A stretch of 64,000 bases of DNA. Source: Candidatus Omnitrophota bacterium (GTDB taxonomy: Bacteria > Omnitrophota > Gorgyraeia > B26-G9). The notes under the pieces are model-generated. The model was not told the DNA's origin. It worked only from the letters and a program-made list of their open reading frames with translations, and searched no databases. Shown one piece after another: positions 6,391 through 38,590 of this stretch (positions are counted from its first letter, which is position 1; every line of letters begins with the position of its first letter). The translations under genes were made by a program, and so were the position numbers. The stretch covers positions 21,305-85,304 of the forward strand of contig JBDRJV010000022.1 in assembly GCA_043814605.1 (NCBI GenBank). Direction: 5' to 3'.

Positions 6391-6406
6391 CAAAAGGAAT
6401 CCCGCT

Positions 6407-7345: not shown

Positions 7346-7361
7346 TAAACTTGCAAAAAAA

Positions 7362-10140: not shown

Positions 10141-10466
10141 GTTCTATCTCTCTCCGTAAAATGCCCACAAATGTAATTACTATTTTAATATACCTTAATC
10201 TTAGTTAGCAAGGAAGATTTTTAAATATTAGTTTATGTTCTTTTCTTAATTAAGTTAAAAAAAAGAACCTGATTTCAGCGATTTAAATAACAGATTACAT
10301 AGATTCACCTGGCTCATCGTCATACAGGCCGGCTAAAGCGAATAAAATTAATCAGTGTAATCTTTTTTAATCTGTGTAATCAGGAGCAATCTCAATCCTA
10401 ATCTCTATTATTACTTTTTATTTAATGCAAAATATTTATGAACACAAATAAAAATAATCCATTATT

Positions 10467-12164: not shown

Positions 12165-12188
12165 TTTTTTAAGTCTTTCGTCATAATT

Positions 12189-13838
12189 TTATTTTACTAA
12201 ATCAACAACATTTAAATTTGGATTATTTAGGGTTAGATTTAATTCTAAATCTTCTTGTTCACGAAACGATAATTCTTTCGGTACAGCTGCGTTTTTCGGG
12301 GCAGAATCATTGCCTGCCGAAACTGCCGGTGATTGATCGCCTTCTTTTAATGCATCAATAATAACTGTTTTCTGATCTTTTATTACTGCATCTTTTTGCG
12401 TTTCTATCTGCTGATGCCAATAGTCCATTGTTTGCACTGGATTTACAATTTTTGGGGTAATAAAAATTAATAATTCTTTATCCACTCTGTCCGATGTAGT
12501 ATGACGGAATAATGCGCCAAAAAAAGGGATATCGCCTAACCAAGGAATTTTAGTTTTCACTTCTTCATCCTCTGTTGTAATAAAACCTCCCACAACAATT
12601 GTTGTCCCGCTTTTAGCCATAACAACTGTACGCATACTCCGTTCTTGGGGATCAATAAAATGTGTCCCCTCACTGGAAGTGAACGTTGATTCTTTTGGCC
12701 TAGAAATTTTTGGCTCAATTAATAAAGATACAAACCCCTCTTCCTCATTAATCATCGGAACAAGTTTTAAGATAGTTCCGACTTCCATTCTGTTTACACT
12801 TATATCTACAGAACCATCATCATTTCTTCTTGTTGTCAAAGAAACTATCTGATCTGCAGTCACTTTTAATTGTGCCCATTCCCGGTCTTGACATAATATT
12901 CTTGGTTTTGCCAGAAATTTTGTGTTTGTATCAGTTTGCAGCATTTCCAATATCCATGATAATCCGGTTGCATCCATAAGCCCGTAGCTAAAATATGATC
13001 CATAATCAGTATCTGCACCCAAAGGTTTGCCTAATATTGGAGATACTTCTGCATATTCCCTATTCTTCCAGGGGGTAAATGGTATCGAAGTAATTCTTTT
13101 TGGACCGTAATATCTTGCCATTTCTTTACCCCATTTTACGCCTAAATCTTTAAGAAAATCTGCTGTTGTTTCAATCAGTTCAACCTCAATCATAACTTCC
13201 GCTACTGGTTTATCAATTTCACTAATAACTTCATCAATCAATTTAAACCGTTCCGGAACATCAGTAATAATAAGCAAATTCATATAGGGAACACACTTTC
13301 CATATTCACTTAATAACGGATTAATAATCGGTCTCCAGCCAAAACTCTGTTCTCTCCCTTGAGATTGTTCTCCCCCGGTACTAGCTGCAGTCAGTGTCGC
13401 CCCTGGTGTAATATTGCCAAAATAATACCTTATCTTATAAACCCGGGTGATTGTTTCAATCGGCTGTGTGGGCTTGGGCCGAACAATTAAGATATTACTT
13501 CCCGGGCTTTGGTAAATTCCCAAATTATTTGAATCAAGTAATGCATTTAAAGCATCTTCAACTAAAACATCATTCATGTATAATGTTATTTGCCGATCCT
13601 CAATACTTTTTGCCGCAACAAAATTTAAACCAGACTGCTGTGAAAATACTTTTAAAACATCTTTTAAATTAGCATCTTTAAAATCCAAAGAAACTAATCC
13701 CTCTTGGATTTCTTCATTTGCTTCGACATCGTCTTCTATTTCGTATGTATTCTGAGTATACCCTAATTCCGCACTGGCACTAAAAAACCCGGCCAGGCAT
13801 AAACAAACAATTAATACACATAAAAAGATCCGTCTCAT
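12189..13838 (-). CDS. pilQ: Type IV pilus secretin PilQ (GspD family)
   Basis: Signal peptide. C-terminal secretin domain (VVGGFITTEDEEVKTKIPWLGDIPFFGALF...LLIFITPKIV). Confidence 0.8.
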   Translation of the reverse strand: MRRIFLCVLIVCLCLAGFFSASAELGYTQNTYEIEDDVEANEEIQEGLVSLDFKDANLKDVLKVFSQQSGLNFVAAKSIEDRQITLYMNDVLVEDALNALLDSNNLGIYQSPGSNILIVRPKPTQPIETITRVYKIRYYFGNITPGATLTAASTGGEQSQGREQSFGWRPIINPLLSEYGKCVPYMNLLIITDVPERFKLIDEVISEIDKPVAEVMIEVELIETTADFLKDLGVKWGKEMARYYGPKRITSIPFTPWKNREYAEVSPILGKPLGADTDYGSYFSYGLMDATGLSWILEMLQTDTNTKFLAKPRILCQDREWAQLKVTADQIVSLTTRRNDDGSVDISVNRMEVGTILKLVPMINEEEGFVSLLIEPKISRPKESTFTSSEGTHFIDPQERSMRTVVMAKSGTTIVVGGFITTEDEEVKTKIPWLGDIPFFGALFRHTTSDRVDKELLIFITPKIVNPVQTMDYWHQQIETQKDAVIKDQKTVIIDALKEGDQSPAVSAGNDSAPKNAAVPKELSFREQEDLELNLTLNNPNLNVVDLVK

Positions 13839-13867
13839 TTTTTTACTCCTTATTTAGTTTTTAAATT

Positions 13868-14293
13868 CTAATAGCCTTGCATTTTTATTTCAAATTCTTT
13901 ACCTTTATAAAACAAGACAATACCGTTTCTAGTAATTTCTCTTACCTCAAATTCCTCAATATACTCGCCTACGTTGATCACGCAGCCATTGAGGATTGCC
14001 TGAGGCCGGCCTTTTTTATAAACAATTCCCTGCAACTCAATCTTTGGCAAAATAATTTGCACATCTTTAGGGATAAGTTGTTTAGGGGGTAACTTAATTA
14101 ATCTTTCTAATTCTTGCGATAACATAAACGGATCTCTTTTTGCTTCGGCTCCTGTATATTTCACGATTCTTCCCTTAAGTAAACTAGAGGCCGGTTCTTT
14201 CTCGCTGGCATTTTCTGCAAAACACACCTTTCCGAAAAAAATCAAAACCGCCAGAAAAAAAATCGCTAAAAAATTTAATATTTTTTTAAACAT
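13868..14293 (-). CDS. PilP-like pilus assembly lipoprotein or periplasmic protein
   Basis: 141 aa, N-terminal signal or TM. Its position between pilO-like and pilQ fits PilP. I recognised no diagnostic motif. Confidence 0.4.
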   Translation of the reverse strand: MFKKILNFLAIFFLAVLIFFGKVCFAENASEKEPASSLLKGRIVKYTGAEAKRDPFMLSQELERLIKLPPKQLIPKDVQIILPKIELQGIVYKKGRPQAILNGCVINVGEYIEEFEVREITRNGIVLFYKGKEFEIKMQGY

Positions 14294-14832
14294 TATTGCT
14301 CCAAAATTGTGTCATTATAATCTAAAGTGCTCAAATTCAGATCCGCAATAACTTTAATTTCTTTCAACTCTTGTTTTTCAAAAACTATTGACTGTTTTAA
14401 ACTCATTTTATCTATCTGGATAAAAAGGTCAGAATTCTCCAAATCACTGATAAAAATACCCAATTGATGATAAGTAGTATTGATCGATAAAGTTACGCCT
14501 AATTTTGAATACTGATTTCTCTTTTCGGCCGGAAGCGCTGAAATTGAAATAATTTTCAGATTTAGTTTTCCCGCCATTTTTGCAATATGAGCTAAGAACC
14601 GTGAACTTCCCTCTACTTTTTGCATCTCTTCCCGCATTTCTTTTAAGTTCGCCAGTTTATCACCCACTTTATTTTCCAGCTTGATACGGTCAATCTCTTT
14701 TCTGTACCCTTTTAGCAGTTTTTGGCTTCTTTGAAAGAAAATTCTCCCGCCAAAAAAAAGCAGCAGACAAAAAATAAATATTCCCAACATTAAAACTTGC
14801 TGCATTTCTTTCGTTAATATTTTCTTTAACAT
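14293..14832 (-). CDS. PilO-like bitopic inner-membrane protein
   Basis: 179 aa, a single N-terminal TM followed by a coiled-coil region. It sits immediately after pilMN. Confidence 0.45.
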   Translation of the reverse strand: MLKKILTKEMQQVLMLGIFIFCLLLFFGGRIFFQRSQKLLKGYRKEIDRIKLENKVGDKLANLKEMREEMQKVEGSSRFLAHIAKMAGKLNLKIISISALPAEKRNQYSKLGVTLSINTTYHQLGIFISDLENSDLFIQIDKMSLKQSIVFEKQELKEIKVIADLNLSTLDYNDTILEQ

Positions 14833-14850
14833 TATAAAATTCCTCTAAAA

Positions 14851-16516
14851 CTATCGCGCTGAATCAATTTCGGAAGAAGCAATTAGATTAAAAGTCATTA
14901 CCGGAATCCCGTTAAAATCACCCTTATTGATTGACCCTGTTTTAATCATTTTAAATCCGTCAAAAAAATCTGTGCTGGCTTTTAATTTTTCAGAAAAATT
15001 ATTAACAACTTCAATCTCTAATCCTCTTTGTTCAGAATAAACAGTTCCATCGAGCTTTAATGTTGTTTCTTTTTTGACTAAACTTTTTTCTAATTTTAAA
15101 ATTTCTTCATAAGTTAAACTTGTTAACCAGGCATTCTCCGGAATTAAGTTGGGGACAGCACTTAATTTGATCGTTAAAAGATTACGGTCTTTTATTGTTT
15201 TTTTGATCATATTTGAAAGCGTAATAATTTCTTTCTCCCCTTGGATCAGCTGATTATCCGTAAAATGACTCAGATCCATAAATTTTGGGCTTTTCCTTTT
15301 TTCCAGTTCTAAAAGCTTCTTTTCGCGAGAAACAAAAAATGAAAAAATTAAATAAATCACAATATAACAAATTATTAATCCGATAGATCCAAAAATCACC
15401 ATTTTCGAAATAAAAACCTTAGTTTTTAAGCTTGTTTTTTTTCTCGCGCTAAATAAATCTATTTCCACAGTTGATTTGCTTTGGTTTCTTAATGCCGCAC
15501 CAATCGTCACGGCAAGCATAGGGAAAGTATAGGGCAGGGGCTTAACCGATTTAGGAATGGTAATATTCTTCAGCGGATCTATCGTATTTACCGGAATATC
15601 AAAACTTTTCTGAAGGTAAGCAGCCAGCGGACAGTTACAATCTGGAATTCCTTTAGCCACTTCCGCCACAATCTCCAAATCATCAAAATCTTCTAATTCT
15701 CCGCAAAGAATAATCTTATTTATTTCTTCTTTTCCCAATTCTTTCTTGTAATATTCCATGGAAATACGGCATTCGCTGAGCATATTTTCCAAGGTTATTT
15801 GACGCGAATCTGATGAACTGATACTTCCTTCCATTAAAAATTCAGCTGCTTCATCGTCGATCCATTCTTCTTTTTCTGCTAAAGAAAGATCACGCACAAA
15901 ATAAGGCACTCCGTTTTTAAGAATAATCAGGTTCATTCTCTGTGCATATATATAAATAACTGCATTTGATTTAAGTTTTTCAATTTCACCGGAATATTCT
16001 AAAAGCCGGAGCAAAGCAAAGGAAGCTGTTTCAACCGCAACAGGATATATCTTTGATTTATGTAAGGTAGTTAAATGATTTTTAATTGATTCTTCTTTGG
16101 TAACTAAAGAAAGGATTCCTAGCTTACGATTAACCTGGTCTTCTTTAAGAATATAAAACCCGGTTACTGCTTGTTCTAAGGGAAAGGGTATATATATATT
16201 TTCTGGCTTCAAAACGTACTGCTTCTTCGAGTTCTTCGGCACTAATCGGCGGCATTTGAAAATAGCGCAGTAATACCATCCCGGGCATCAGGATACTATT
16301 AACATTTTTTAAATCAGCTTTTGATTTTTTTACAGCTTTATCCAGCGCCGCTAAAATAAGCTCATCTTTATTTGCCCCTGCAGCTTGATTATCTTCAAAA
16401 ATGTCTACATGAATAAAATTAATCAGCTGTATTTTGCCGGCTACATTTTGTAATTGGGCAAGTTGTACAGTTTTAGGGCCAATATACAAGCCTATTGTAC
16501 TTTTAAATAAGAACAT
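14851..16516 (-). CDS. pilM: PilM-PilN fusion (actin-like ATPase plus bitopic PilN) interrupted by a frameshift in a (TA)5 tract
   Basis: ORF 16145..16516 encodes a PilM N-terminus. ORF 14851..16242 (GTG start) continues with the PilM consensus YIPFPLEQAV and a later PilN-like TM helix. The two frames overlap at the TATATATATA tract at 16189-16198. Removing two TA units or adding one restores ...ARKYIPFPLEQ... in a single frame. Confidence 0.6.
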
Positions 16517-23293: not shown

Positions 23294-23452
23294 AGCAAGT
23301 AGCAAGAGAAACTACGAGCTAGATTACAAATATTAAAGTTTAGATAAAAACATAGAATTTTAAAATTCTTCATTTTTATTTTTAATTTCCACTTGTACTC
23401 GCCACTTTATTTAAGTATCTATTTTTTCTTGCTACTCGCTACTTTATTTAGC
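23294..23452. repeat. Intergenic element with imperfect roughly 17-bp terminal inverted repeats (AGCAAGTAGCAAGAGAAA ... TTTCTTGCTACTCGCT) and an internal 20-bp direct repeat (TACTCGCCACTTTATTTAAG / TACTCGCTACTTTATTTAGC)
   Basis: Read directly from the sequence between uppS and the GH57 gene. The interior is AT-rich. Confidence 0.35.
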
Positions 23453-25028
23453 TATGGAACCTGTAATCAATGTCCGGAAATATATTATTTTTAAATTCAA
23501 TTTTACCCAGCCAAGCTTGATTTATATTGTTCCCCTTAATTTGATGGTATAATTTCGTAAAATTCAAGATATGCTCTTTGGTTCTTTCCACTGCATAAGA
23601 AACATGCGTACCCGTTTTTATAATAAACGCCCAGTCTGAACTTTGCGCGAGTAATAATTCTCGCAATGACTGATTTAGAGCATTTTTCCTTAATCCATCC
23701 GCTTCCGGATAAAGTTTGACCAATTCACACATCCGATCCGAAGCTTTATGCAAATGGCGGTAAATCCAATCATTCGAGCCTTCCAGCCAAAACTCAGAAT
23801 ACCCTTTCCATCCCCAGCTTGACATTGACGGAGTAATCACTTGATTTTTAGGATATTTTTCTAAATACTGTGAAGGCGTAATCATTTTAATTATGTTTTG
23901 GTCATAAGCAATTTTACGCATTAAAAAATTTATCCAATCCGGCCCTTCATACCACCAATGTCCGAATAATTCTGCATCGTAAGGAGAAATAATTATCGGA
24001 TTTCTTTTCGTAATACTTTGAATATATTCGACTTGCTTTTGCCGATTAAACATAAAATTTCCCGCATGAGAAGCTGCTGTATCCATAGCTGCCTCCGGAT
24101 TATAAGGCTGTTTATCGTCTGTTCTGCCGGTTATCCGATAATACTTTATCCCGGTATTTGTTCTAATCCCATCCGGATGGATATACGGTTTAATATAATC
24201 AAAATCCAAATCAAAACCAATATCCCGGTAAAATTCACGATAATTATAATCTCCGGGATAACCCTGTACTGCACTCCAAACCTGCTTTGAAGATTCCAGG
24301 TCACGGCCAAAACAAGCCACACCGCTTTTACAATAAACCGGGGCAAAAACCCCGTACTTAGGCCTGGGCGTACCGTGTAAAATCCCGTGTGTATCTGTAA
24401 AAAAATAACGCAGCCCATTTTCTTTTAAAATCTGATCATCGCCCGGATTATACCCGCATTCTGGCAGCCAGATTCCCTTCGGCTGCCGGCCAAAAACACG
24501 TTTATATTGATCCACTGCAGTTTTTACTTGCGCCCGGACCGAAGCCTTGCACACATCCATCAGCGGAAAAAATCCGTGTGTTGCCCCGCAAGTCATAATT
24601 TCTAACTTACCTGTATCCTGAATTCTTTTAAATGCTTGGACAATATTTTTTTTATTTTGCTCAACAAAACAATACCGTGCTAAATTAAAGTTACTTAAAT
24701 ACATTAAAGCCAGCCGATTAAATTCTGGCTGCCAACGTGTTCTTTCTACTTCTCTTGAGGCTAATTCTATTAATTTTTCAATATGACGCGTATAGCGGTC
24801 CTGCAACAATGGATCCATAAGCATTGAAATTAAAGTCGGTGAAAGTCCGATTGTAATCCGGAAATCAACATTATCTTTAATTAGCCGCTCAAAAATAGTC
24901 AATAACGGAATATATGTTTCTGTAATTGCTTCATATAACCAATCTTCTTCTAAAAAATTCTCATGCTCTGGGTGCCGCACAAAGGGTAAATGACCGTGTA
25001 AAACAAAACAAAGATATCCTTTTTCCAT
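23448..25028 (-). CDS. Glycoside hydrolase family 57 protein, 1,4-alpha-glucan branching-enzyme-like
   Basis: The N-terminus GYLCFVLHGHLPFVRHPE is the GH57 signature. 526 aa. Confidence 0.8.
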   Translation of the reverse strand: MEKGYLCFVLHGHLPFVRHPEHENFLEEDWLYEAITETYIPLLTIFERLIKDNVDFRITIGLSPTLISMLMDPLLQDRYTRHIEKLIELASREVERTRWQPEFNRLALMYLSNFNLARYCFVEQNKKNIVQAFKRIQDTGKLEIMTCGATHGFFPLMDVCKASVRAQVKTAVDQYKRVFGRQPKGIWLPECGYNPGDDQILKENGLRYFFTDTHGILHGTPRPKYGVFAPVYCKSGVACFGRDLESSKQVWSAVQGYPGDYNYREFYRDIGFDLDFDYIKPYIHPDGIRTNTGIKYYRITGRTDDKQPYNPEAAMDTAASHAGNFMFNRQKQVEYIQSITKRNPIIISPYDAELFGHWWYEGPDWINFLMRKIAYDQNIIKMITPSQYLEKYPKNQVITPSMSSWGWKGYSEFWLEGSNDWIYRHLHKASDRMCELVKLYPEADGLRKNALNQSLRELLLAQSSDWAFIIKTGTHVSYAVERTKEHILNFTKLYHQIKGNNINQAWLGKIEFKNNIFPDIDYRFHS

Positions 25029-25273: not shown

Positions 25274-26704
25274 TTAATTCGTTTTTTTCTTAACAACTGG
25301 GGTAATTTCTCTTGTATCTACACCATCTTCAGAAACTGCTTTAACCGGAATTACTTGCTGGCCATCCGGCAAAGCAAACCTTAAACTAAAAGTTCCATCT
25401 TTATTTAAAGCAATCGGGTTTCCTTGTACAGTTACTTTTGCGTCTGGTTCTGTTGCTCCATAAACAATCAATTCTGTATTAACTTTAAGCCAAAATTTAC
25501 GTTTTTGCGCTTTTTTCCCGGCTCCGGGCGAAGATAATATTCCGGAAGAAATATCGCTCATTCTTTGAATAATCTGTCTTCTGATATCCGCAGAACTAAG
25601 CCCAATTCCCAGGCCTGCGGATAATCCGTAAAGCTTATTAAAATCCTCCTCTACAATCATCCATTCCTCATCCGTAACCCAGCTAGAGCCATCAATCGGA
25701 GTTGAGACACAATTAGAACGGGCTAATAAAACAAACCTGCCGTCTTTTAAACAAAACCCAATATCTACACAAAAACTGCGTCCGGGATTTGCGGTATTTA
25801 TATACCAGTTATTGGCAAAATTATTAATATCAATATCCCAAAAATTGTTTGCATTCGAACCGCTAAAATTCACACTGGTAATATCATAAACTCTTAATAT
25901 GCGCCGGGCATCTTCCAAAGCCCCGTTAAATTCCTGATAAACAGTATTCAGTTTTGCCTGTGTAATTTCCCAATAAGCGTGCAGCCAATAAGGATCTCTG
26001 ACCTGAATAATAATGCGGTTATCCCCGTAGCCTAAGGGTAATTCTGCAAACTCTTTTTCCCCCACTACATTTTCTACCGGCACAGGGCTGACAAAAAATT
26101 TGCTTTCTTCAATAATCTGCTCTTGTGCTAAATTCTGCATTAAAGCTGGTTCTTTTTTATTTTTGCTAGTAAACAAATATTTTAGTTCACTGATCGGCCC
26201 TAAACGGGTTGATTTATCTTTTTCTTTTGTTTGCCTGTTCTGATTTTTTTTAACCAGCTTAATTTTGGAATTTTCTGCTGTTTGGATGTTTTTTGTTTTT
26301 TTTGCTTCTGTTTTTTTTGAATTTGCCATCTTCATCACCTCTGTTTTCCGGGCAGCTTGACGGGAAATAATTTTTTGCCAGGTACTCGCTTTATCCGTAT
26401 TTTTTCTTACTGTTTTTTTAGGCTGAGAAACAGTTTTTTTTCTCTCAATTTTTTTTATCTTAACCCTAGGCTCTGATTTTATCTTTTGTATCGTTACTTT
26501 TTTTAGCTTAGGTTTTTCCCGTTTTCTTTCTGTTTTAACTGCTTTTTTCGCTGCTTTACCTTTAACCGCGCTTTGAGTTTGAAAAGATGGCTTTACTGTA
26601 TTTTTAACTTTTAAATTTTTCTCTTTGAATTTGGATTTAATTATCTTTTTCTGATCAGCTATTTTTTTCGTCTTACTATTTATAACTGCTTTTTTTTTAA
26701 TCAT
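25274..26704 (-). CDS. Lysine-rich protein with a conserved C-terminal domain that resembles DUF4912
   Basis: The first roughly 190 aa are low-complexity K-rich (KKxxK repeats). The C-terminus contains LPLGYGDNRIIIQVRDPYWLHAYWEI, which I recall as the core of DUF4912. That is recall, not a search result. Confidence 0.45.
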   Translation of the reverse strand: MIKKKAVINSKTKKIADQKKIIKSKFKEKNLKVKNTVKPSFQTQSAVKGKAAKKAVKTERKREKPKLKKVTIQKIKSEPRVKIKKIERKKTVSQPKKTVRKNTDKASTWQKIISRQAARKTEVMKMANSKKTEAKKTKNIQTAENSKIKLVKKNQNRQTKEKDKSTRLGPISELKYLFTSKNKKEPALMQNLAQEQIIEESKFFVSPVPVENVVGEKEFAELPLGYGDNRIIIQVRDPYWLHAYWEITQAKLNTVYQEFNGALEDARRILRVYDITSVNFSGSNANNFWDIDINNFANNWYINTANPGRSFCVDIGFCLKDGRFVLLARSNCVSTPIDGSSWVTDEEWMIVEEDFNKLYGLSAGLGIGLSSADIRRQIIQRMSDISSGILSSPGAGKKAQKRKFWLKVNTELIVYGATEPDAKVTVQGNPIALNKDGTFSLRFALPDGQQVIPVKAVSEDGVDTREITPVVKKKTN

Positions 26705-29401: not shown

Positions 29402-30553
29402 CTATTCGATTTCAACTAAAGAATTCTCATTTCCCACCGGATCAGAAACTCTTTTTGGATTATTAGGATCAACAATCCATTTCCCATCTACAATAAACTT
29501 ATACTGATATTTCCCCGGGTTTAATTTATAGACCCGAGACCATACCCCTTTTTCCTCATTCTCTAATTTACTCTGGTTCTGCGCTACCCAATTATTAAAA
29601 TCACCGGCAATTTCTACGCTTTTTGCCTCAGGCGCATAAACAAAAAATTTTGTTTCTTTTTCTAATTTTTTCTCAGGTATTATTTTATCTATATCCTGCT
29701 TTTGTTGTATTTGCGGTTCTTGTGCTCTGGCTTTATCCAGAACGCGTTTAATGAAAATATCGTCTTGTTTATTTTTCGCTGTATTTTTTATTGAAGAAAC
29801 TTCCCGGGCTAGCTGTATATAATCTTCGGCGCCATTACTGCGCTGATCATAACTGGTTATGGGAACGCCGTGGCTGGAAGCTTCTCTGAGGCGGATATTA
29901 TTACGAATGATTGTGTTAAATACATTACCTGAAAAATATTTAAATATTTGTTCTTTAATCTCCTGCGCAAATCGGGTGCGGCGGTTAAACATTGTCAATA
30001 AGGCTTTAACTTTTATTTTACAATCTAATCGGGAATTAATCAGATTGATTGTTTCCATAAGTTTACTGATCCCATGTAAAGAAAAGAATCCTGTTTCCAC
30101 CGGGGCAATAACTTCATTTGACGCACGCAGCGCATTAAAGGTCAGCAGTCCCAAGCTCGGTGAGCAGTCAATTATCACAAAATCATATGTCTTTGTTCCG
30201 ACCATTAATGATATTGCCTGATGCAATTTTGCTTCTCTTGCGGGTTTGCCGGAAAGCTCCTGTTCTATTGCGCAAAGCCTGATATTTGCCGGAGCTAAAT
30301 CTAGTTTTTCGGTAATACGCGTTATTACTTGATCTAAGCGCATCCGGCTTTGCTCATTATCTGTCAAAACATTATACATTGATTTTTCCAAATTTTCTGG
30401 ATTAACATTCAGGCCTAAAGTTGCATGCGCCTGCGCATCCATATCAATAAGCAAGACATTCTGGTTTAGATCCGCTAAACTTGCTGCGAGATTAATTGCT
30501 GTTGTAGTTTTACCGCATCCGCCTTTTTGATTCGCAATAGCAATTATCTGCAT
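29402..30553 (-). CDS. ParA/MinD-family ATPase fused to a C-terminal CBM48 / AMPK-beta-type glycogen-binding domain
   Basis: Deviant Walker A at residues 9-17 (QKGGCGKTT), A' and B motifs, and a ParA fold through about aa 260. The C-terminus FFVYAPEAKSVEIAGDFNNWV...GKYQYKFIVDGKWIVDPNNP...NSLVEIE matches the AMPK beta GBD (GSFNNW...HQYKFFVDGQWTHDP). Confidence 0.8.
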   Translation of the reverse strand: MQIIAIANQKGGCGKTTTAINLAASLADLNQNVLLIDMDAQAHATLGLNVNPENLEKSMYNVLTDNEQSRMRLDQVITRITEKLDLAPANIRLCAIEQELSGKPAREAKLHQAISLMVGTKTYDFVIIDCSPSLGLLTFNALRASNEVIAPVETGFFSLHGISKLMETINLINSRLDCKIKVKALLTMFNRRTRFAQEIKEQIFKYFSGNVFNTIIRNNIRLREASSHGVPITSYDQRSNGAEDYIQLAREVSSIKNTAKNKQDDIFIKRVLDKARAQEPQIQQKQDIDKIIPEKKLEKETKFFVYAPEAKSVEIAGDFNNWVAQNQSKLENEEKGVWSRVYKLNPGKYQYKFIVDGKWIVDPNNPKRVSDPVGNENSLVEIE

Positions 30554-30728: not shown

Positions 30729-31130
30729 TTAGTTCCATTCTTGAGGGCCTGCACCAGCTGCATTATCATACGTACCATCCTGATCCATTGTTACCATTTG
30801 ACCGCTATAAGGACCAGCGATTCGTGATGCTGTAGTAACAACTGTTGAAGGAGTTGCAACACTTGCATATGTCCAATCCCCATCATCACCGTCTAGATAA
30901 TCATCAGGCAAATCAACATCAGTTAAATCAGCATAAGCAGCAGTAAACTGATCTTGAAGCGCTCTATACTGTATTTGCGCATTTGTAATCGCGCGTAACC
31001 CTGCTTTTGCTTTCCCGCCTTTTGTTCTTTCAATTGATCTAAAATAACTTGGTACAGCTATTGTTACCAATATACCGATAATGATAACAACCATTAAAAG
31101 TTCCACAAGTGTAAAACCTTTTCTCTTCAT
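30729..31130 (-). CDS. pilA: Type IV pilin, candidate major pilin
   Basis: MKRKGFTLVELLMVVIIIGILVTIAVPSY is a class III signal with G/F cleavage and Glu+5. It has its own strong promoter and terminator. Confidence 0.8.
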   Translation of the reverse strand: MKRKGFTLVELLMVVIIIGILVTIAVPSYFRSIERTKGGKAKAGLRAITNAQIQYRALQDQFTAAYADLTDVDLPDDYLDGDDGDWTYASVATPSTVVTTASRIAGPYSGQMVTMDQDGTYDNAAGAGPQEWN

Positions 31131-31873: not shown

Positions 31874-31908
31874 AACCCAATTCTGACCGCGGGGGTCAGA
31901 GTTGGGTT
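31874..31908. repeat. REP-like palindromic element, copy 1 (AACCCAATTCTGACC-GCGGG-GGTCAGAGTTGGGTT)
   Basis: 15-bp arms with a 5-nt loop. It abuts the stop codon of the 1303-aa gene. A near-identical copy lies at 36049-36083. Confidence 0.6.
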
Positions 31909-34900
31909 AAATTGACATTTCTGGATTTATATTGTGCATGTAAAAAATATCTTTTATTTGCTCTAAGGCAATCATGGCAACCTTGGAATCTTCAACAACT
32001 TTTTTTTGCCTTGCCTTGTTTTTAATAATTCGCTCAAGTGAATCAATAAAACTACATGCACTTTCCTGCTCATAATCCTTTAGCTTGCTAAGATCAATTA
32101 TTTTAATGCATTTTAATAACTGCCTTAAGTATTTATTCTTTAAAAATTTTAACTTATAAAGAAGCTTATCAGAATCATAGTAACCAGAGCTGATTGATAT
32201 CCGAATTAGCTCAGCCGCATCAAATCTCTTTTTATTGCTGGGTGATTGTAAAGCCTCTACCACCTGACCTTCAATTTGCGGCATAATTTTCGGTACCATT
32301 GCCGGCATAACTAATTTTGAAAACATTTTTACCGCTAAAGAACTGGTAAAATTAAAATCTTTCACTCTATCTTCACCTGTATATACTGTTACAATCCCAG
32401 AATATTTATCTTCTATGCCAAATAAAAATACAGCAATCCGGTTTTTTTTATTATCTCCAGTGCCGGTTTTCCCAAATATATTAATATGTTCGGCTAAAAC
32501 AGAATTTTTAATTTTTGCCCTTTGCGCTGATCCTTGCAAAACAACTTGTTTCAAAACTTTTATACCAACCTCTGCTATTTCTTTAGATAACACTTGCTCT
32601 GATTTTAAGAGCATTTTATTTAGAAAACTGGCAAAAGGGGTTTCTCTGGCTAACTGGATTTCTCCAACTTCCTGAGTATCTTTTTTAACCCCTTTATTTA
32701 TCAAAATACTAATTAAATCCACCAGTGCTCCGGGCGTATCCCCCGAAGGCCCCAGCGCCACGCTCAAGGTAGGGATAACTTTAAACGGATATCCTAGTTT
32801 TTGCCAAAAAGGCGTGATCTTCTGGTAAAAAATACTTTTTTCTAAATCTGTATAAATCCTCCGATACATTTCATGTGAAGCCGCAGGACTTAATAACCAT
32901 TCCGCTGTACTATTAATAATCATTTTTGTCTGTTTTGAATCAGGTTGATACCCTGATTTTATTTGCTGTTTTAGCCATTTACTTTGTTTTTTAGCTAATC
33001 TTTTAAAAAAATCCTGATATGTTTTATTTTTCATTTGCGCAATAGTCTTTTTAATATTTCCTTTATTTTGTTTTGCTTGTCTAATAAACTTTATAATCTC
33101 CTCAGCTATGTGCTTCTTTTCTGTCTGAAGTACCTCCGTAGCATACTCCTGCCAAACCGGATTATTATGATTCTTACATATCTCATCCGCTGCATACCCA
33201 AATGTTTGCTCAACATAATACTCAAATATTTGTTCTGCTAAACGCACAAAAACTAAATTAATGGATAGAATTAATGCTTTGTCCACGCTCACAGCCTCTA
33301 AGTTATGTGCCGGATGATAGTTATTTATTTGCTGCCAGCCGCCGGCTGTAAAAAATTTACCCGGCATTGCAGAAACTTTATATTTTAAAGCTTTTTCTAA
33401 TATATCCTTTAAACTCAGATCAGGATTCACATATAACTGTGCAATCACCCACTGGCTTATCGGATTACTTTTTTGTGCAAGTGCCATTTCTAATTCCACT
33501 GAGCTTTGGGCAAAAGATTTATGAAAATTATAGACATCTGCAACAATAGTTAAAAATTGTAAAAAAATACGCAGTTTAGCAGTTGAACCCAATTCCGTCT
33601 TACTATCTAAAACATAGTCAAACTGCTGATCATCAAATGTATCAATATGTGCGACTACTTTATTTGCAGATGAAGCATCTCCACCTTTTTCTACTACATA
33701 ACAGCTATAGCGCAACTGAGAAATGTCATTATTCCTTAAATTAATCAGTTTCCTGCCGGCAAAGGAATACTTTTGCAAAAAATACGGATCATACATTTGT
33801 ACAAAATTTTCATACAGCTTCTGTTGCAATAAATGATCATTAGAAGCTCGCAACCTTATATCCATCCTATTTAATGTATTAAGATTAATTAAATCCTCTG
33901 GAGTTGATTCTCTTAAAAGCTTTACCATCCAATTACGCATGGACAAAGCCGCCCGATTTTTACCGTAAGGCACTCCGTTAAATAAAACTTTTTTCTGCGG
34001 ATTCCAATAATCATAAGTTTCTTGTGCAGTTTTTGATTCTTGTTCGCTAATAAATTCCATCCTCTGGATTTTTTTTAAAAGCAGGTTTGCTTCCTCATTA
34101 CCCCCATTATTTCTTAATATGCTTGGATTTCTAATTGCACCCATCAAGGCCGCAATTCGTTTTAGAGCCTTAGTCCGTAACTGCGGATCTTTTAACTGCG
34201 TATTTAGTTCCGTCAGACTGATTCCGTAAAAAGCGTACAAAGCCTCACCAAAACCAATAACTTCCCCCAGATAACCGTTTGGCCCACCGGCAAATGGTAC
34301 CCAGTTTAAATAATTCAATAATATATTTTGCGCAGCGAGTTGCGGATTATCATTGCTAAAAAGTAATGAGGCATGTATAAGCTGCTTAATTTTTTCTTCA
34401 AAATCTTTTGTTTTACCATTTTCTGAATGTAGTATTTTAGCTAACTGAATCGCAATTGTACTTGCTCCGTGCACTCTCCCATAATAATCATGTGAAATAT
34501 TACTATAGATAATTGAGTATATCGCGTTTACTAAACGCCGCTCCTCAATTATATAATTTCCTTTTCCTAGAAATACTCTCAATTCCGGAAAAAGCAGTTG
34601 TAATAACTTTGTATTTTCCCAAGCTAGGAGCATTTTTATGATCAAAGGGTCAACATCTGAAAATTTTTCAATTCGATAAGGATCATTATATTCATAAATA
34701 ATTCTTTCTTGAGGATCAATAATTAAAAAATTATTTCCCTGATCCCAAACTGGCGGCATAATTGAGCGTTTTTTTATTAGATCAATTAATAACCGGGATT
34801 GAGCTGTTTTCGCTTTAAAGTCAAATCCCTGTTTATTAATCAAAAAAGAAATTAAATCAGGCAACAAAATATAACCTTTTGTTTTAGAGTACAAACCTGT

Positions 34901-35818
34901 TTTGGGATAAACCATTTTAATGCCTGATAAATTTTTACCTTCATCTTTAAACACTGTTTGCCAATAAATACATGCACGCATAAGGTTAAAATATTGTTTA
35001 TACAAAACCGCATAATAAAGTTCAAAAAACAATATTGCTTTAAATGACAGAAAAAGCCCGGCAATAAGTAACCATTTTTTTCTTCTATCCGTGGGAAATT
35101 GTATTTTTTTAATTAAAAGTAAATGCGGGGTTAAAATCGCAGCAACTAATAAGCTATTAAAAATTAAGGAACCAAAGCAGTAACAATAACTTATGGTAAA
35201 AACAGCCGGAATTAATATCACCCCGGATAAAAAACTAACTAAAATTTTATCTAAACCAAACGCATCTTCTAATACAGTTTCGCGGAAAATCTTATTCTTA
35301 CCAACTCCCCAAACATGAGACATATGCCAGAAAACCTGAAAAGTGATAAATGATTGAGCAAACCATCTGAAACTATCTTGAGTAATATCAAAAGGCAGAC
35401 CGGTTTTTTGATACATAACAAAGGCCATACCACAGATCATTAAAAACGGGTAATAATAAATTTCAAAAAACTTTTTAATAAAATCTCTGTGATTTTTCCA
35501 AAACAGCTTGAAATATTTTTTTAAACCATCTGTAAAATTAAAGGGGAAATTTTTTTCTTTACCTTTAATCTTTTCTTGTTGTTCTTTAAAATTCAATAAT
35601 GTTCTTTTTATCTTGCCTTGCTGCCGCATTGTTTGGTTAAACGATCCGGCAAATAAGTCTATAAAGTTATTCTGGGAAATTTGCACTTGCGGGGATAAAC
35701 AATCATGACGATTCTTGCTAAAACCAGACAAATCTCCTGCGGCAAAAACAAGGTTTGTCCATAATAATAGCTCTATTAATATGAAAACAATAATATTTAA
35801 TTTTAACTTATTTTTCAT
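31907..35818 (-). CDS. Highly divergent class A penicillin-binding-protein-like protein (GT51 transglycosylase-like plus transpeptidase-like motifs) with extra N-terminal TM segments and large insertions
   Basis: Signal or TM plus about 5 additional TM helices. HGASTIAIQLAK matches GT51 motif 2. KIKQLIHASLLF...ILLNYLNWVPFAGG matches motifs 3/4. ELGSTAKL is an SxxK motif, LSIN is an SxN motif, and FGKTGTGDNKKNRIAVFLFG matches the KTG(T) motif plus the D..WFVG region. These are my motif-level calls, not a search. Confidence 0.5.
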   Translation of the reverse strand: MKNKLKLNIIVFILIELLLWTNLVFAAGDLSGFSKNRHDCLSPQVQISQNNFIDLFAGSFNQTMRQQGKIKRTLLNFKEQQEKIKGKEKNFPFNFTDGLKKYFKLFWKNHRDFIKKFFEIYYYPFLMICGMAFVMYQKTGLPFDITQDSFRWFAQSFITFQVFWHMSHVWGVGKNKIFRETVLEDAFGLDKILVSFLSGVILIPAVFTISYCYCFGSLIFNSLLVAAILTPHLLLIKKIQFPTDRRKKWLLIAGLFLSFKAILFFELYYAVLYKQYFNLMRACIYWQTVFKDEGKNLSGIKMVYPKTGLYSKTKGYILLPDLISFLINKQGFDFKAKTAQSRLLIDLIKKRSIMPPVWDQGNNFLIIDPQERIIYEYNDPYRIEKFSDVDPLIIKMLLAWENTKLLQLLFPELRVFLGKGNYIIEERRLVNAIYSIIYSNISHDYYGRVHGASTIAIQLAKILHSENGKTKDFEEKIKQLIHASLLFSNDNPQLAAQNILLNYLNWVPFAGGPNGYLGEVIGFGEALYAFYGISLTELNTQLKDPQLRTKALKRIAALMGAIRNPSILRNNGGNEEANLLLKKIQRMEFISEQESKTAQETYDYWNPQKKVLFNGVPYGKNRAALSMRNWMVKLLRESTPEDLINLNTLNRMDIRLRASNDHLLQQKLYENFVQMYDPYFLQKYSFAGRKLINLRNNDISQLRYSCYVVEKGGDASSANKVVAHIDTFDDQQFDYVLDSKTELGSTAKLRIFLQFLTIVADVYNFHKSFAQSSVELEMALAQKSNPISQWVIAQLYVNPDLSLKDILEKALKYKVSAMPGKFFTAGGWQQINNYHPAHNLEAVSVDKALILSINLVFVRLAEQIFEYYVEQTFGYAADEICKNHNNPVWQEYATEVLQTEKKHIAEEIIKFIRQAKQNKGNIKKTIAQMKNKTYQDFFKRLAKKQSKWLKQQIKSGYQPDSKQTKMIINSTAEWLLSPAASHEMYRRIYTDLEKSIFYQKITPFWQKLGYPFKVIPTLSVALGPSGDTPGALVDLISILINKGVKKDTQEVGEIQLARETPFASFLNKMLLKSEQVLSKEIAEVGIKVLKQVVLQGSAQRAKIKNSVLAEHINIFGKTGTGDNKKNRIAVFLFGIEDKYSGIVTVYTGEDRVKDFNFTSSLAVKMFSKLVMPAMVPKIMPQIEGQVVEALQSPSNKKRFDAAELIRISISSGYYDSDKLLYKLKFLKNKYLRQLLKCIKIIDLSKLKDYEQESACSFIDSLERIIKNKARQKKVVEDSKVAMIALEQIKDIFYMHNINPEMSI

Positions 35819-36048: not shown

Positions 36049-36083
36049 CTCAGGTAATAACCCAATTCTGACCGCGGGGGTCA
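36049..36083. repeat. REP-like palindromic element, copy 2 (AACCCAATTCTGACC-GCGGG-GGTCAGAATTGGGTT)
   Basis: It differs from copy 1 by one compensated position. It lies 15 nt 3' of the stop of the 36099 gene. Confidence 0.6.
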
Positions 36084-36098
36084 GAATTGGGTTACCCA

Positions 36099-36806
36099 TC
36101 ATAACTTGCCCTCTTCAAATCCGTATAGGGATTTTGCACATTCAGGACATAGCCCGTGCGTAAATTCTGTTTCAGAATGATCAGTAATATATCTTTCAAT
36201 CTGATTCCAATAACCTTTATCATCACGGATTTTTTTGCAATTCGCGCAAATTGGTAAAATTGTTCTTAAAGTCATGACTTCTTTACGAATCTTATTAACA
36301 ATGATATTTAAAAGAAAACCTAACCAAACTGCATAAAACAAAAATCCAAAGTTAGTAAAAATAGTTCTCCAGGTTGCCGCAGGGCCTGAAAATAATAATA
36401 TATTGTGAAAAATAATTATTAGCGATCCAGGCACGAGAAACTCAATGAATGGTTTACTGGATAATATTGCCGCAACTAAAATAATTACCATATTGCCGGC
36501 AAAATAAATACTGTTAAATCCTTCACCAACAATAAGTGTTATATATGAAATGCTAATCCCGCATACAACATAAGCCGAAGCAATTATCACAGATACTAAT
36601 TTTTCCGGTATTTTTTCAATTACAAAATAAAAAATAAAACAATAGGCCATGGCAAATAAACGCACAATAAGCAGGGGCAACCAAAAGTTAAGATAGTAAA
36701 TGTGATCTAATAAATGATAACTTAACATGCCAAAAAAACCGATTAAAAGATGTATGGCCAAACGGGTTTTTAATTCATTAAGGTTTGTTTTAATCATTTT
36801 TTGCAT
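36099..36806 (-). CDS. Polytopic membrane sensor-like protein with a C-terminal 4-Cys (CxxC...CxxC) domain, paralog B
   Basis: About 5 TM helices, then LRTILPICANCKKIRDDKGYWNQIERYITDHSETEFTHGLCPECAKSLYG. I moved the start to MQKMIKTNL, matching the paralog. It is about 70% identical to the upstream gene. Confidence 0.5.
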   Translation of the reverse strand: MQKMIKTNLNELKTRLAIHLLIGFFGMLSYHLLDHIYYLNFWLPLLIVRLFAMAYCFIFYFVIEKIPEKLVSVIIASAYVVCGISISYITLIVGEGFNSIYFAGNMVIILVAAILSSKPFIEFLVPGSLIIIFHNILLFSGPAATWRTIFTNFGFLFYAVWLGFLLNIIVNKIRKEVMTLRTILPICANCKKIRDDKGYWNQIERYITDHSETEFTHGLCPECAKSLYGFEEGKL

Positions 36807-36817
36807 TATATTAAAAC

Positions 36818-37531
36818 TCACGGCCATTCCTTATCTTCTTCAAATCCGTACAAAGCTTTTGCGCAATCCGGACATATACCGTGTGTAAATTCTGTTTCAG
36901 AATGATCAGTAATATATCTTTCAATCTGATTCCAATAACCTTTATCATCACGGATTTTTTTGCACTTTGAACAAATCGGCAGAATTGTTCTTAAAGTCAT
37001 GACTTCTTTACGAACCTTATTAACAAGGATATTTAAAATAAAACCCAAAGCTACTGCATAACATAAAAACCCGGAAGTAGTTAAAATGGTTCTCAAAGTC
37101 GCCTTCGGACCAAAAGATAATAATATGTTGTGCAAAATAATTATTAGGGAGCCAGGCACGAGAAACTCTACAAATGGTTTACTGGTTAATACCGCCATAA
37201 CTACTATAATCACTATATTACCGGCAAAATAAATACTGTTAAACCCTTCATTTACAACCATAGTCATTGATGAAATACCGAATGCAGCCACAATATAAGC
37301 CGAACCCATTACCGCAGATACTAGTTTTTCCGGTATCTTCTCAATAATAATATAGAAAATAAAACAATAAACCATTGTAAATAAACGCACAATAAGTAAG
37401 GGCGAGCGATAATCAGGATAATAGACACAATCCCATAAATGATAACTTAACATGCCAAAAAAACCGATTAAAAGCTGTATGGCCAGGCGGGTTTTTGATT
37501 CATCAAGATTTACTTTAATTATTTTTTTCAT
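36818..37531 (-). CDS. Polytopic membrane sensor-like protein with a C-terminal 4-Cys domain, paralog A
   Basis: Same architecture: ...ICSKCKKIRDDKGYWNQIERYITDHSETEFTHGICPDCAKALYG. It is a tandem duplicate of the downstream gene. Confidence 0.5.
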   Translation of the reverse strand: MKKIIKVNLDESKTRLAIQLLIGFFGMLSYHLWDCVYYPDYRSPLLIVRLFTMVYCFIFYIIIEKIPEKLVSAVMGSAYIVAAFGISSMTMVVNEGFNSIYFAGNIVIIVVMAVLTSKPFVEFLVPGSLIIILHNILLSFGPKATLRTILTTSGFLCYAVALGFILNILVNKVRKEVMTLRTILPICSKCKKIRDDKGYWNQIERYITDHSETEFTHGICPDCAKALYGFEEDKEWP

Positions 37532-37662
37532 AATAAACTTTTCAAAAATAAAATTTTAGTCTTTAATCTGAAGTCTCTGGGCTTTGGTCCCGCCAAGATT
37601 TTTCTTGAAGTATCATACAGAAGGCTTGCCATTGCATATTTATTCGTATACACCGCGGGCAG

Positions 37663-38058
37663 CTATTTCTTAAGATTTTCTTTAATACATTTAAGCAACT
37701 CTTCTGTAGAAACTGGTTTGGATAATAAAGGATATCCAAAATAAGTATCGGCTAGGGATTTCGGATGGCCACTGTCAACAATACCACTGACAAAAATAAT
37801 CGGAATATTTTTAAGTTTAGAATCTTTTTTTACTTGGGCCGCTACCTGGGTTCCGTCCATATCGCCTAAAATAATATCCAGTAAAATTAAATCCGGCTTG
37901 TATTCCTTTAGTACTGCTAAAGCTGAAGCCCCATGCAATTCAACTCTTACTTCATACTTACCTGTATTTTCAAGGTTAAGCTTAACAAAGTCTGCAAAAT
38001 CCTGCTCATCATCAACTAATAATAACTGGATCTTCTTGGGGGGTTTTTTAGTAACCAT
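37663..38058 (-). CDS. Stand-alone response-regulator receiver domain protein (CheY-like)
   Basis: 131 aa. DD acidic pocket (LLVDDEQD), phospho-acceptor Asp in LILLDIILGDMDG, conserved Ser/Thr and Lys (LSKP). Confidence 0.85.
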   Translation of the reverse strand: MVTKKPPKKIQLLLVDDEQDFADFVKLNLENTGKYEVRVELHGASALAVLKEYKPDLILLDIILGDMDGTQVAAQVKKDSKLKNIPIIFVSGIVDSGHPKSLADTYFGYPLLSKPVSTEELLKCIKENLKK

Positions 38059-38206
38059 ACGTCACCTCCTTGTTTACTTATAACATAATATACGATTTTA
38101 TTCAACTTAGTAGTAAGTAGTAAAGATTAGGATTAATTGTTTAGCAAAAAAATGAAAATTTTCCGCTATTAAAAAATTTTTCTTCAAGCTTAATACCTAC
38201 TACTAC

Positions 38207-38590
38207 TTATCCCTTATTTGTGTTTTCCTCAATACAATTTATCAAATCAGCTATAGCTATGGGCTTCGAAAGCAATGGAAATCCGCCAAGATAATTATGC
38301 AACGAATGCTCCTGTCCTAACTTTATTATCCCGGAAATATAAACAATCGGGATGTCTTTGCCATAATCACTATTTTTTATTTCATAAGCCACTTGCGAAC
38401 CGTCCATATCTCCAATCGCAATGTCCAAGAGAATTAAATCCGGCTTAAAAACTAAAACTGCAGAAAGGGTTGATGACCCATGAATTTCACTTCTCACGGT
38501 ATACTTCCCAGTAGCTTCGAGATTAATTTTAATCATCTCACAAAAGTCCTTTTCATCATCAACAATGAGAATTTTTTTCTTTTCCGGCAT
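38207..38590 (-). CDS. Stand-alone response-regulator receiver domain protein, paralog
   Basis: 127 aa, with the same motifs (ILIVDDEKD, LILLDIAIGDMDG, LSKP). Confidence 0.85.
   Translation of the reverse strand: MPEKKKILIVDDEKDFCEMIKINLEATGKYTVRSEIHGSSTLSAVLVFKPDLILLDIAIGDMDGSQVAYEIKNSDYGKDIPIVYISGIIKLGQEHSLHNYLGGFPLLSKPIAIADLINCIEENTNKG

What the first reader, a model, noticed from the sequence alone, without database searches (positions are those of the whole stretch)
36099..38590. Tandemly duplicated 5-TM 4-Cys sensor-like proteins beside two stand-alone receiver proteins, with no histidine kinase in the module
Two adjacent paralogs at about 70% identity have the same layout: about 5 TM helices followed by a conserved CxxCKKIRDDKGYW...HGxCPxC domain. 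They sit next to two paralogous CheY-like single-domain response regulators with intact phospho-acceptor sites. I recognise no kinase, phosphotransfer or output domain. Either the Cys-rich C-terminal domain mediates signalling in an unconventional way, or the receivers are served by kinases encoded elsewhere. The paired duplication (2 sensors plus 2 receivers) looks like a recent duplication of a whole module.
Basis: seen in the sequence. Interest (0 to 1): 0.55.

Follow-up and report, generated by a model that had tools for sequence, protein, structure and literature searches.

The report
Membrane sensors with uncharacterised four-cysteine domain
Two neighbouring membrane proteins of a Candidatus Omnitrophota bacterium end in a small four-cysteine domain that closes thousands of bacterial sensor proteins yet is missing from Pfam, NCBIfam and the PDB, and the two receiver genes beside them look like ordinary, unrelated neighbours.

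Summary
The four genes are real. S1 and S2 are tandem paralogs, 76% identical. Each has about six membrane helices and a C-terminal C-x2-C-x29-C-x2-C domain. RR1 and RR2 are stand-alone receivers, 52% identical, with intact phospho-acceptor residues. No histidine kinase was found in the 47 of 54 window ORFs scanned.

The "kinase-less module" reading does not hold:
- Six contexts of S1/S2 homologs carry no receiver.
- Three contexts of receiver homologs place them directly after a histidine kinase, with no four-Cys gene nearby.
- The S pair is young (dS 0.6). The receiver pair is saturated at synonymous sites. These were two separate duplications.

The four-Cys domain is the interesting part. 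It matches 21,482 cluster representatives across many phyla and always ends a sensor unit (PAS, GAF, REC, Cache-HAMP, MASE). It was never seen with a kinase, cyclase or DNA-binding output. It has no Pfam, NCBIfam or PDB match, and I found no paper on it.

Most likely it is a metal-binding output domain that works in pairs on an unlinked target. That target is unknown.

The parts
38207..38590 (-). RR1, a stand-alone receiver (REC) protein of 127 aa.
   Evidence: Pfam Response_reg, E = 4.4e-14, and no other domain. D11/D12, D56, S86 and K109 are present. It starts 32 nt after the stop of the upstream ManC-like gene.
37663..38058 (-). RR2, a stand-alone receiver (REC) protein of 131 aa and an old paralog of RR1.
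   Evidence: Pfam Response_reg, E = 6.2e-17. It is 52% identical to RR1, with synonymous sites saturated. Homologs at 45-52% identity are stand-alone receivers of about 125 aa that lie directly after histidine kinases.
36818..37531 (-). S1, a 237-aa membrane sensor-like protein. It has a polytopic MASE8-like domain of about six helices (about residues 1-175), a linker helix, and the C-terminal four-Cys domain.
   Evidence: ORF and translation. Hydropathy peaks. Homologs at 30-55% identity have the same layout. No Pfam or NCBIfam match.
36863..36973 (-). Four-Cys core of S1: CSKCKKIRDDKGYWNQIERYITDHSETEFTHGICPDC.
   Evidence: Motif scan of all six frames. The four Cys and the Trp are invariant, and P, R, D, G and E are nearly invariant, in 64 diverse domain copies.
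36099..36827 (-). S2, a tandem paralog of S1. It is 242 aa from the first ATG. The likelier start is M8 at 36806, which gives 235 aa.
   Evidence: 76% identical to S1 with no gaps. dS 0.60 and dN/dS 0.22. Its first ATG overlaps the end of S1 by 10 nt.
36138..36248 (-). Four-Cys core of S2: CANCKKIRDDKGYWNQIERYITDHSETEFTHGLCPEC.
   Evidence: Motif scan. It contains an 80-nt run identical to S1.
36052..36097 (-). Strong hairpin immediately after the S2 stop codon. It probably marks the end of the transcription unit.
   Evidence: Minimum free energy -29.5 kcal/mol, z = -5.4, and none of 200 shuffles folds as well. The consensus terminator scan did not call it, because no T-run follows.

Best explanation
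S1 and S2 are a lineage-specific tandem pair of small membrane-embedded signalling proteins.

The input is a polytopic domain of about six helices with short loops. It has conserved polar residues inside the helices and is distantly MASE8-like. The last membrane helix continues as a cytoplasmic linker helix into a roughly 50-residue four-Cys domain.

That domain belongs to a very large family that is absent from Pfam, NCBIfam and the PDB. In that family it occupies the position of the transmitter or output domain behind PAS, GAF, REC, Cache-HAMP and MASE sensors.

Inferred, not shown:
- The four Cys bind one metal ion, most likely zinc, between two knuckles.
- The domain acts in pairs, here probably as an S1-S2 heterodimer.
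- A signal-dependent change in the linker helices alters how the paired domains bind a conserved target encoded elsewhere. A protein target is more likely than DNA.

RR1 and RR2 are ordinary single-domain response regulators of a subfamily normally phosphorylated by an adjacent histidine kinase. Here they are orphaned from their kinase. They lie next to S1/S2 with no conserved linkage to them.
For: Family size and position:
- The 65-residue C-terminal query matched 21,482 representatives of 50%-identity clusters at E <= 1e-3, and 15,145 at E <= 1e-10.
- In the best 146, the core lies 1-48 residues from the end of a unit.

Partner domains in those 146: PAS 49, MASE6 15, GAF 10, REC 6, HAMP 4, plus PocR, dCache, SBP_bac_3, FIST and Reg_prop. 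Precomputed Pfam labels on the hits add MASE3, MASE8 and VUPS. No kinase, cyclase, phosphodiesterase or helix-turn-helix output appears among the 25 families listed (of 34 matched).

In 79 species-representative loci from at least 12 phyla:
- 14 hosts are REC plus the four-Cys domain.
- 12 have a REC-bearing ORF within 500 nt.
- All nine such neighbours that I scanned are histidine kinases, eight of them hybrid with a C-terminal REC.
- Cache-HAMP-, SBP-PAS-, PAS- and MASE6-linked versions sit beside such kinases.

Pairing: 38 hits carry two sensor-plus-four-Cys units in one chain. In the eight checked, the halves are 38-75% identical.

Both S copies are under purifying selection: dN/dS is 0.27 in the membrane part and 0.10 in the Cys part.

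No curated or solved relative was found.

The receivers are unlinked to the sensors.
Against: - No experiment or solved structure exists for the domain.
- The AlphaFold model is only of medium confidence (pLDDT 67.5). I could not inspect its coordinates, so metal-site geometry is unverified.
- Metal identity, dimerisation and the target are all inferred.
- The list of best hits favours two-copy proteins because their scores add up, so their true frequency is unknown.
- Only 1 of 79 species-representative loci had a second copy nearby. Tandem pairing is therefore not general.
- The MASE8 assignment rests on sub-threshold or precomputed matches in relatives. The window proteins themselves give no hit.
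- The rest of the genome was not available, so the kinases that serve RR1 and RR2 were not found.
Confidence: 0.6

Rival explanations
1. Kinase-less module. The four-Cys domains of S1/S2 talk directly to RR1/RR2, or more generally to receiver domains. Membrane signals would then reach receivers without a histidine kinase.
For: - The genes are adjacent and on the same strand in this window.
- Among 79 unrelated loci, 12 four-Cys genes lie within 500 nt of a REC-bearing gene, mostly hybrid kinases.
- RR1 and RR2 are up to 38-40% identical to the REC domains of REC-plus-four-Cys proteins.
Against: - Six contexts of S homologs have no receiver, and three contexts of RR homologs have a kinase and no four-Cys gene.
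- The two duplications differ greatly in age.
- Intergenic gaps of 131 and 148 nt separate the genes.
- REC fused in cis to the domain suggests that REC controls it, not the reverse.
- Genes for signalling proteins cluster in these genomes anyway.
Confidence: 0.12
2. Nucleic-acid-binding output. The four-Cys domain is a zinc-ribbon-type DNA- or RNA-binding module, which would make S1/S2 membrane-tethered one-component regulators in the manner of ToxR or CadC.
For: - Many zinc ribbons bind nucleic acids (general knowledge).
- The conserved basic patch CKKIR follows the first knuckle.
- There are sub-threshold similarities to zinc-ribbon Pfam families and to ribosomal protein bL36.
- The domain is the only candidate output in REC-containing response regulators.
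Against: - The domain is net acidic: 7 K+R against 9 D+E in S2, and 6 against 8 in the consensus.
- It has about 50 residues and no helix-turn-helix.
- No conserved target genes lie nearby.
- Sequence identity of 60-75% across phyla fits one universal partner better than diverse operator sites.
Confidence: 0.15
3. Redox or metal input. The four Cys form an iron site, an iron-sulfur site or a thiol switch that senses redox state, oxygen or metals. The domain would then be a second sensor rather than an output.
For: - There are four invariant Cys with the same C-x2-C-x29-C-x2-C spacing as rubredoxin (from memory).
- The hits are rich in lineages I know as anaerobic or microaerophilic.
Against:
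- No rubredoxin appears in the PDB profile search.
- Proteins made only of REC, PAS or GAF plus this domain would then have no output at all.
Confidence: 0.1

Closest known systems
Modular bacterial sensor proteins with MASE-type membrane inputs (MASE1-MASE11), such as MASE-GGDEF, MASE-HD-GYP and MASE-histidine kinase
   Same: - A polytopic membrane domain with short loops and conserved polar residues in the helices, followed by a linker helix and a cytoplasmic module.
- Relatives of S1/S2 carry precomputed MASE8 (PF20968) labels.
- Other members of the four-Cys family have MASE3 or MASE6 inputs.
   Different: - The cytoplasmic module is not a cyclase, phosphodiesterase or kinase. It is a roughly 50-residue four-Cys domain with no curated family.
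- S1 and S2 themselves do not reach any Pfam MASE threshold.
Response regulators with small non-enzymatic output domains (REC plus output)
   Same: REC-plus-four-Cys proteins exist and often lie directly after hybrid histidine kinases, as a cognate regulator would.
   Different: - The output has no known activity or partner.
- In the window the domain hangs on a membrane sensor, not on REC.
- The neighbouring REC proteins have no output domain at all.
Single-domain (CheY- or DivK-like) response regulators
   Same: - RR1 and RR2 consist of REC only, with all phospho-acceptor residues present.
- The best NCBIfam similarities include the DVU0259/DivK-type single-domain model, well below its cut-off.
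   Different: - No chemotaxis genes occur in the window.
- The closest homologs are paired with sensor histidine kinases, not with CheA.
C4 zinc-binding domains with CxxC-x29-CxxC spacing (rubredoxin; papillomavirus E6/E7 zinc domains; the metal site of the type II secretion ATPase EpsE, PMC5061722)
   Same: - Identical Cys spacing.
- The second knuckle reads CPxC.
- The predicted order is strand, knuckle, strand, helix, strand, knuckle, helix. From memory, this is the order in the dimeric E7 zinc domain.
   Different: - No significant sequence or fold match. Rubredoxin probability is 1.2%.
- E6 and E7 appear only at Foldseek E > 1.
- This is a resemblance of spacing and topology, not evidence of homology.

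Membership tests
Classical two-component module (histidine kinase plus cognate response regulator) | A HisKA/HATPase_c kinase encoded with the receiver | tested here: not met
   No kinase, Hpt or CheA domain in the 47 of 54 ORFs of at least 110 aa that were scanned in the 64-kb window.
Classical two-component module (histidine kinase plus cognate response regulator) | A receiver domain with an intact acidic pocket, acceptor Asp, Ser/Thr and Lys | tested here: met
   Response_reg matches at E = 4e-14 and 6e-17. The residues are located.
MASE8 membrane sensor domain (Pfam PF20968) | A score above the Pfam gathering threshold of 26.2 bits | tested here: not met
   S1 and S2 give no hit even at E <= 10. 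Relatives P0013 and P0014 score 17-18 bits. Some relatives at 33-35% identity carry precomputed PF20968.4 labels. The domain is MASE8-like at best.
Four-Cys C-terminal domain family (unnamed; defined here by sequence) | C-x2-C-x29-C-x2-C with the LPIC..CK.[IV]RD..G.W...E.Y signature | tested here: met
   Both S1 and S2 carry it. The four Cys and the Trp are invariant in 64 diverse copies. S2 matches family members at about 92-100 bits.
Four-Cys C-terminal domain family (unnamed; defined here by sequence) | The domain ends a sensor unit, follows a helical linker, and has no other output domain alongside it | tested here: met
   The core ends 12-14 residues before the C-terminus in S1 and S2. 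The same holds in the hits.
Four-Cys C-terminal domain family (unnamed; defined here by sequence) | Binding of a metal ion by the four Cys | not testable with these tools
This needs metal analysis of purified protein.
Rubredoxin | Sequence-profile similarity beyond the Cys spacing | tested here: not met
No rubredoxin appears in the PDB profile search.
Curated zinc-ribbon or zinc-finger families in Pfam (Zn_ribbon_8, zf-C4pol, DUF3039, Zn_ribbon_LapB and others) | A score above the family gathering threshold | tested here: not met
   Across 64 domain copies the best E-values are about 1e-3. For the window copy, the five families listed score 12-15 bits against cut-offs of 22.7-35.
Chemotaxis CheY | Genomic or phylogenetic association with CheA, CheW or MCP genes | tested here: not met
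   No che genes in the window. Homologs at 45-52% identity follow sensor histidine kinases.

The most novel reading that the evidence does not exclude
The four-Cys domain is an undescribed, widespread transmitter domain of bacterial signalling that works without phosphoryl or nucleotide chemistry. Paired copies, such as an S1-S2 heterodimer, would dock directly onto receiver domains or hybrid kinases, here RR1 and RR2. Membrane, PAS, GAF and Cache sensors would thereby feed into phosphorelays with no kinase domain of their own.
Probability: 0.1. Interest if true: 0.85.

Novelty: new variant of a known kind. Interest (0 to 1): 0.5.

Why it matters
Bacterial signalling is usually described through a short list of output chemistries: histidine kinases, cyclic-nucleotide enzymes, methyl-accepting proteins and DNA-binding domains.

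This is a roughly 50-residue domain that sits exactly where those outputs sit. It lies behind PAS, GAF, REC, Cache-HAMP and MASE sensors in more than 21,000 sequence clusters from many phyla, and it is 60-75% identical between phyla. Yet I found no curated family, no solved structure and no paper for it.

If the gap is real, a sizeable share of sensor proteins in Desulfobacterota, Spirochaetota, Nitrospirota, Acidobacteriota and the PVC group currently has no assignable output. Finding the partner of this one small domain would explain all of them at once.

The specific cluster in the window is an ordinary member of that family with a recent tandem duplication. The proposed sensor-receiver module is probably accidental.

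Tried and rejected
Structure:
- A single-sequence AlphaFold model of full-length S2 was unusable (pLDDT 53.6).
- Foldseek against the PDB and against viral models gave nothing below E = 0.9.

Sequence searches against the PDB:
- phmmer found nothing below E = 0.18.
- The profile search found nothing below E = 0.05.

Other checks:
- Homology to rubredoxin was rejected.
- Pfam and NCBIfam gave no family for the domain.
- tblastn against plasmids gave a single unannotated hit in Dongshaea marina.
- Source names for ten family members gave nothing beyond "hypothetical protein".
- Clustering about 700 neighbouring ORFs from 79 loci found no recurrent partner other than signalling proteins.
- The promoter and terminator scan was at background: 15 promoter-like sites against 13.8 expected, and 0 terminators.
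- The two RR-flanking intergenic regions are not unusually structured.

Literature: eight full-text searches by motif fragments, by Cys spacing and by descriptions of output domains found no paper on this domain. The archaeal HalOD2 and TackOD1 Cys-rich outputs (PMC5847659) differ in spacing and distribution.

A look-up of the window protein's own contig returned nothing, so the rest of the genome could not be searched for kinases.
Full report
**What is there**

The region holds four minus-strand genes:
- RR1: 38207-38590, 127 aa.
- RR2: 37663-38058, 131 aa.
- S1: 36818-37531, 237 aa.
- S2: 36099-36827, 242 aa from the first ATG.

The S2 N-terminus aligns with that of S1 from its eighth residue (MQKMIKTNL against MKKIIKVNL). 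The real start is therefore probably 36806.

S1 and S2 are 76% identical over 234 residues with no gap. RR1 and RR2 are 52% identical. The exact proteins occur in a Candidatus Omnitrophota metagenome-assembled genome on a 221-kb contig. There S1 and S2 are annotated as hypothetical proteins and RR2 as a response regulator.

Both receivers match only Pfam Response_reg and keep all phospho-acceptor residues.

S1 and S2 have no Pfam or NCBIfam match at all. Hydropathy and predicted helices indicate about six membrane helices with short loops. An alignment of 26 full-length homologs shows invariant or nearly invariant polar residues inside that part: D34, Y38, R49, S99, Y101, G104 and H134.

A 16-bp hairpin (-29.5 kcal/mol, z = -5.4) follows the S2 stop codon directly.

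**Surroundings**

I scanned 47 of the 54 ORFs of at least 110 aa in the window against Pfam. They encode housekeeping enzymes, a pilus or type II secretion-like cluster, sugar-nucleotide and glycogen enzymes, and radical SAM proteins. None has a HisKA, HATPase_c, Hpt or CheA domain.

The immediate neighbours are a ManC-like and a NadE-like gene upstream and a 1303-aa transglycosylase-domain protein downstream.

**The Cys-rich domain is the real subject**

The last 65 residues of S2 matched 21,482 representatives of 50%-identity clusters at E <= 1e-3, and 15,145 at E <= 1e-10, out of 1.84 billion. The word-indexed search of the full protein gave 5,628 hits.

The core is always C-x2-C-x29-C-x2-C, 37 residues long. 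It ends a sensor unit 1-48 residues before the chain end.

In 64 diverse copies the four Cys and one Trp are invariant, and P, R, D, G and E are nearly so. The consensus is LPICAxCKKIRDDxGYWxxxExYxxxHSxAxFSHGxCPxC.

Its best 80 loci come from these groups:
- Spirochaetota
- Desulfobacterota / Thermodesulfobacteriota
- Nitrospirota
- Nitrospinota
- Acidobacteriota
- Gemmatimonadota
- Chloroflexota
- Bacteroidota
- Verrucomicrobiota / Kiritimatiellia
- Bdellovibrionota
- Zetaproteobacteria
- Clostridia

Identity to the window copy is still 56-75% in these loci.

**What it is attached to**

A Pfam census of the 146 newly fetched best representatives found only input-type partners:
- PAS: 49
- MASE6: 15
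- GAF: 10
- REC: 6
- HAMP: 4
- PocR, dCache, SBP_bac_3, FIST, Reg_prop and DUF4118 in smaller numbers

The precomputed Pfam labels on the hits add MASE3, MASE8 and the vitamin-uptake-like sensor. No kinase, cyclase, phosphodiesterase or helix-turn-helix domain appears among the 25 families listed (of 34 matched).

In 79 species-representative loci:
- 14 hosts are REC plus the domain.
- 12 have a REC-bearing ORF within 500 nt.
- All nine such neighbours that I scanned are histidine kinases. Eight are hybrid kinases with a C-terminal REC, and one has REC at its N-terminus.
- The hosts beside them include PAS-, SBP-PAS-, Cache-HAMP- and MASE6-linked versions.

The domain therefore sits exactly where a transmitter or output domain sits, and it is embedded in two-component neighbourhoods. 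Clustering about 700 neighbouring ORFs found no other recurrent partner family. This is what would be expected of an output that acts on an unlinked target.

**What the domain looks like**

An AlphaFold model built with a 67-row alignment has medium confidence (pLDDT 67.5). It shows a short strand, the first knuckle, a strand, a 13-residue helix, a strand, and the second knuckle at the start of a final helix.

Searches for relatives found nothing significant:
- Foldseek against the PDB found nothing below E = 4.9.
- Foldseek against viral models found nothing below E = 0.9.
- Sequence and profile searches of all PDB chains found nothing below E = 0.05.
- The 64 domain copies reach only sub-threshold scores for assorted zinc-ribbon families.

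The Cys spacing equals that of rubredoxin, but a profile-profile comparison gives 1.2% probability.

The same spacing is reported for papillomavirus E6/E7 zinc domains and for the EpsE metal site. E6 and E7 appear among the non-significant fold hits. I treat this as a lead only.

The domain is net acidic, which argues against simple DNA binding.

**Are sensors and receivers a module?**

The evidence says no.

- Full-length S homologs at 33-55% identity were seen in six independent contexts. Each has a single four-Cys gene among unrelated housekeeping genes and no receiver.
- RR2 belongs to a populous subfamily of stand-alone receivers of about 125 aa. In three independent contexts the homolog lies 2-16 nt downstream of a histidine kinase: REC-HisKA-HATPase, dCache-HAMP-HisKA-HATPase, or HisKA-HATPase. 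No four-Cys gene is present.
- The gene order is RR-RR-S-S.
- The S pair has dS 0.60 and dN 0.13. The receiver pair is saturated at synonymous sites with dN 0.41.

These were therefore two separate tandem duplications, the receiver one far older. Both S copies are under purifying selection (dN/dS 0.27 in the membrane part and 0.10 in the Cys part). An 80-nt identical run lies in the Cys core.

Two points keep a small probability on a functional link. First, four-Cys genes recur next to REC-bearing kinases elsewhere. Second, RR1 and RR2 are 38-40% identical to the REC domains of REC-fused family members.

**Mechanism proposed**

Shown:
- The architecture.
- The family membership.
- The output-like position of the domain.
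- Purifying selection on both S copies.
- The lack of conserved linkage to the receivers.

Inferred:
- One metal ion, probably zinc, is held by the two knuckles.
- The domain functions in pairs. The support is that 38 hits carry two sensor-plus-domain units fused in one chain, and the halves were 38-75% identical in the eight checked. By Rosetta-stone logic this suggests that the adjacent S1 and S2 form a heterodimer.
- The signal travels through the continuous helix from the last membrane segment.
- Many paralogous sensors converge on a single conserved target encoded elsewhere, most likely a protein.

I put about 0.6 on this overall picture. I put about 0.8 on its descriptive core and about 0.35 on the protein-binding, paired-domain mechanism.

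**Novelty and caveats**

I found no Pfam, NCBIfam or PDB entry for the domain. I also found no paper in eight full-text searches of the held library.

That library lacks most subscription journals, and I could not query InterPro or CDD. The domain may therefore already have a name that I could not see.

The window's genes are an ordinary member of this family with a lineage-specific duplication. The interest lies in the family, not in the supposed module.

My ORF calling in the fetched loci was crude. Lists of best hits over-represent two-copy proteins. The rest of the genome was not available.

Noticed in passing
window 29402-30553 (-): A ParA/MinD-type ATPase (AAA_31, CbiA) is fused to a C-terminal glycogen-binding module (AMPK1_CBM / CBM_48). 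It lies close to a GH57 branching enzyme (23448-25028) and a DUF4912 plus Glucodextran_B protein (25274-26704). It may be an ATPase that positions glycogen granules.
   Followed up: no
window 31907-35818 (-): A 1303-aa protein directly downstream of S2. Its only Pfam match is a transglycosylase domain at residues 434-574. The rest is unassigned.
   Followed up: no
window 36052-36097 (-): A hairpin with a 16-bp perfect core lies immediately after the S2 stop codon (-29.5 kcal/mol, z = -5.4). It lacks the T-run of a classical intrinsic terminator.
   Followed up: partly
window 36138-36248 and 36863-36973 (-): An 80-nt run of perfect identity between S1 and S2 lies inside the four-Cys core, although dS is 0.6 overall. 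This suggests gene conversion or constraint at the nucleotide level.
   Followed up: partly
proteins P0005-P0008, P0016, P0121-P0148 and others: 38 hits carry two complete sensor-plus-four-Cys units in one chain, either membrane-domain units or REC units. In the eight checked, the halves are 38-75% identical. Whether these are true fusions or gene-calling read-through was not checked at the DNA level.
   Followed up: partly
L097-L100: The closest homologs of the stand-alone receivers follow a histidine kinase. In two lineages they lie next to phosphotransferase-system genes (enzyme I, HPr, EIIA).
   Followed up: no
PDB chain 7yjw_A, residues 17-41: A chain deposited as "Membrane protein" contains IPICLVCKIREEKGTYKNLEEAL. 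It matches the first half of the domain profile at E = 0.053. This is not significant, but it is the best PDB match.
   Followed up: no
window 8905-16242 and 30729-31130 (-): A pilus or type II secretion-like cluster (T2SSF, T2SSE, secretin, PilO-like, PilM-like) and a separate pilin gene with an N-terminal methylation motif.
   Followed up: no
whole window: GC skew is strongly negative in every 2-kb bin except the near-neutral 6001-8000 bin, where the two large plus-strand genes lie. Nearly all genes are on the minus strand. G+C falls from about 36% to about 30% beyond 50 kb.
   Followed up: no
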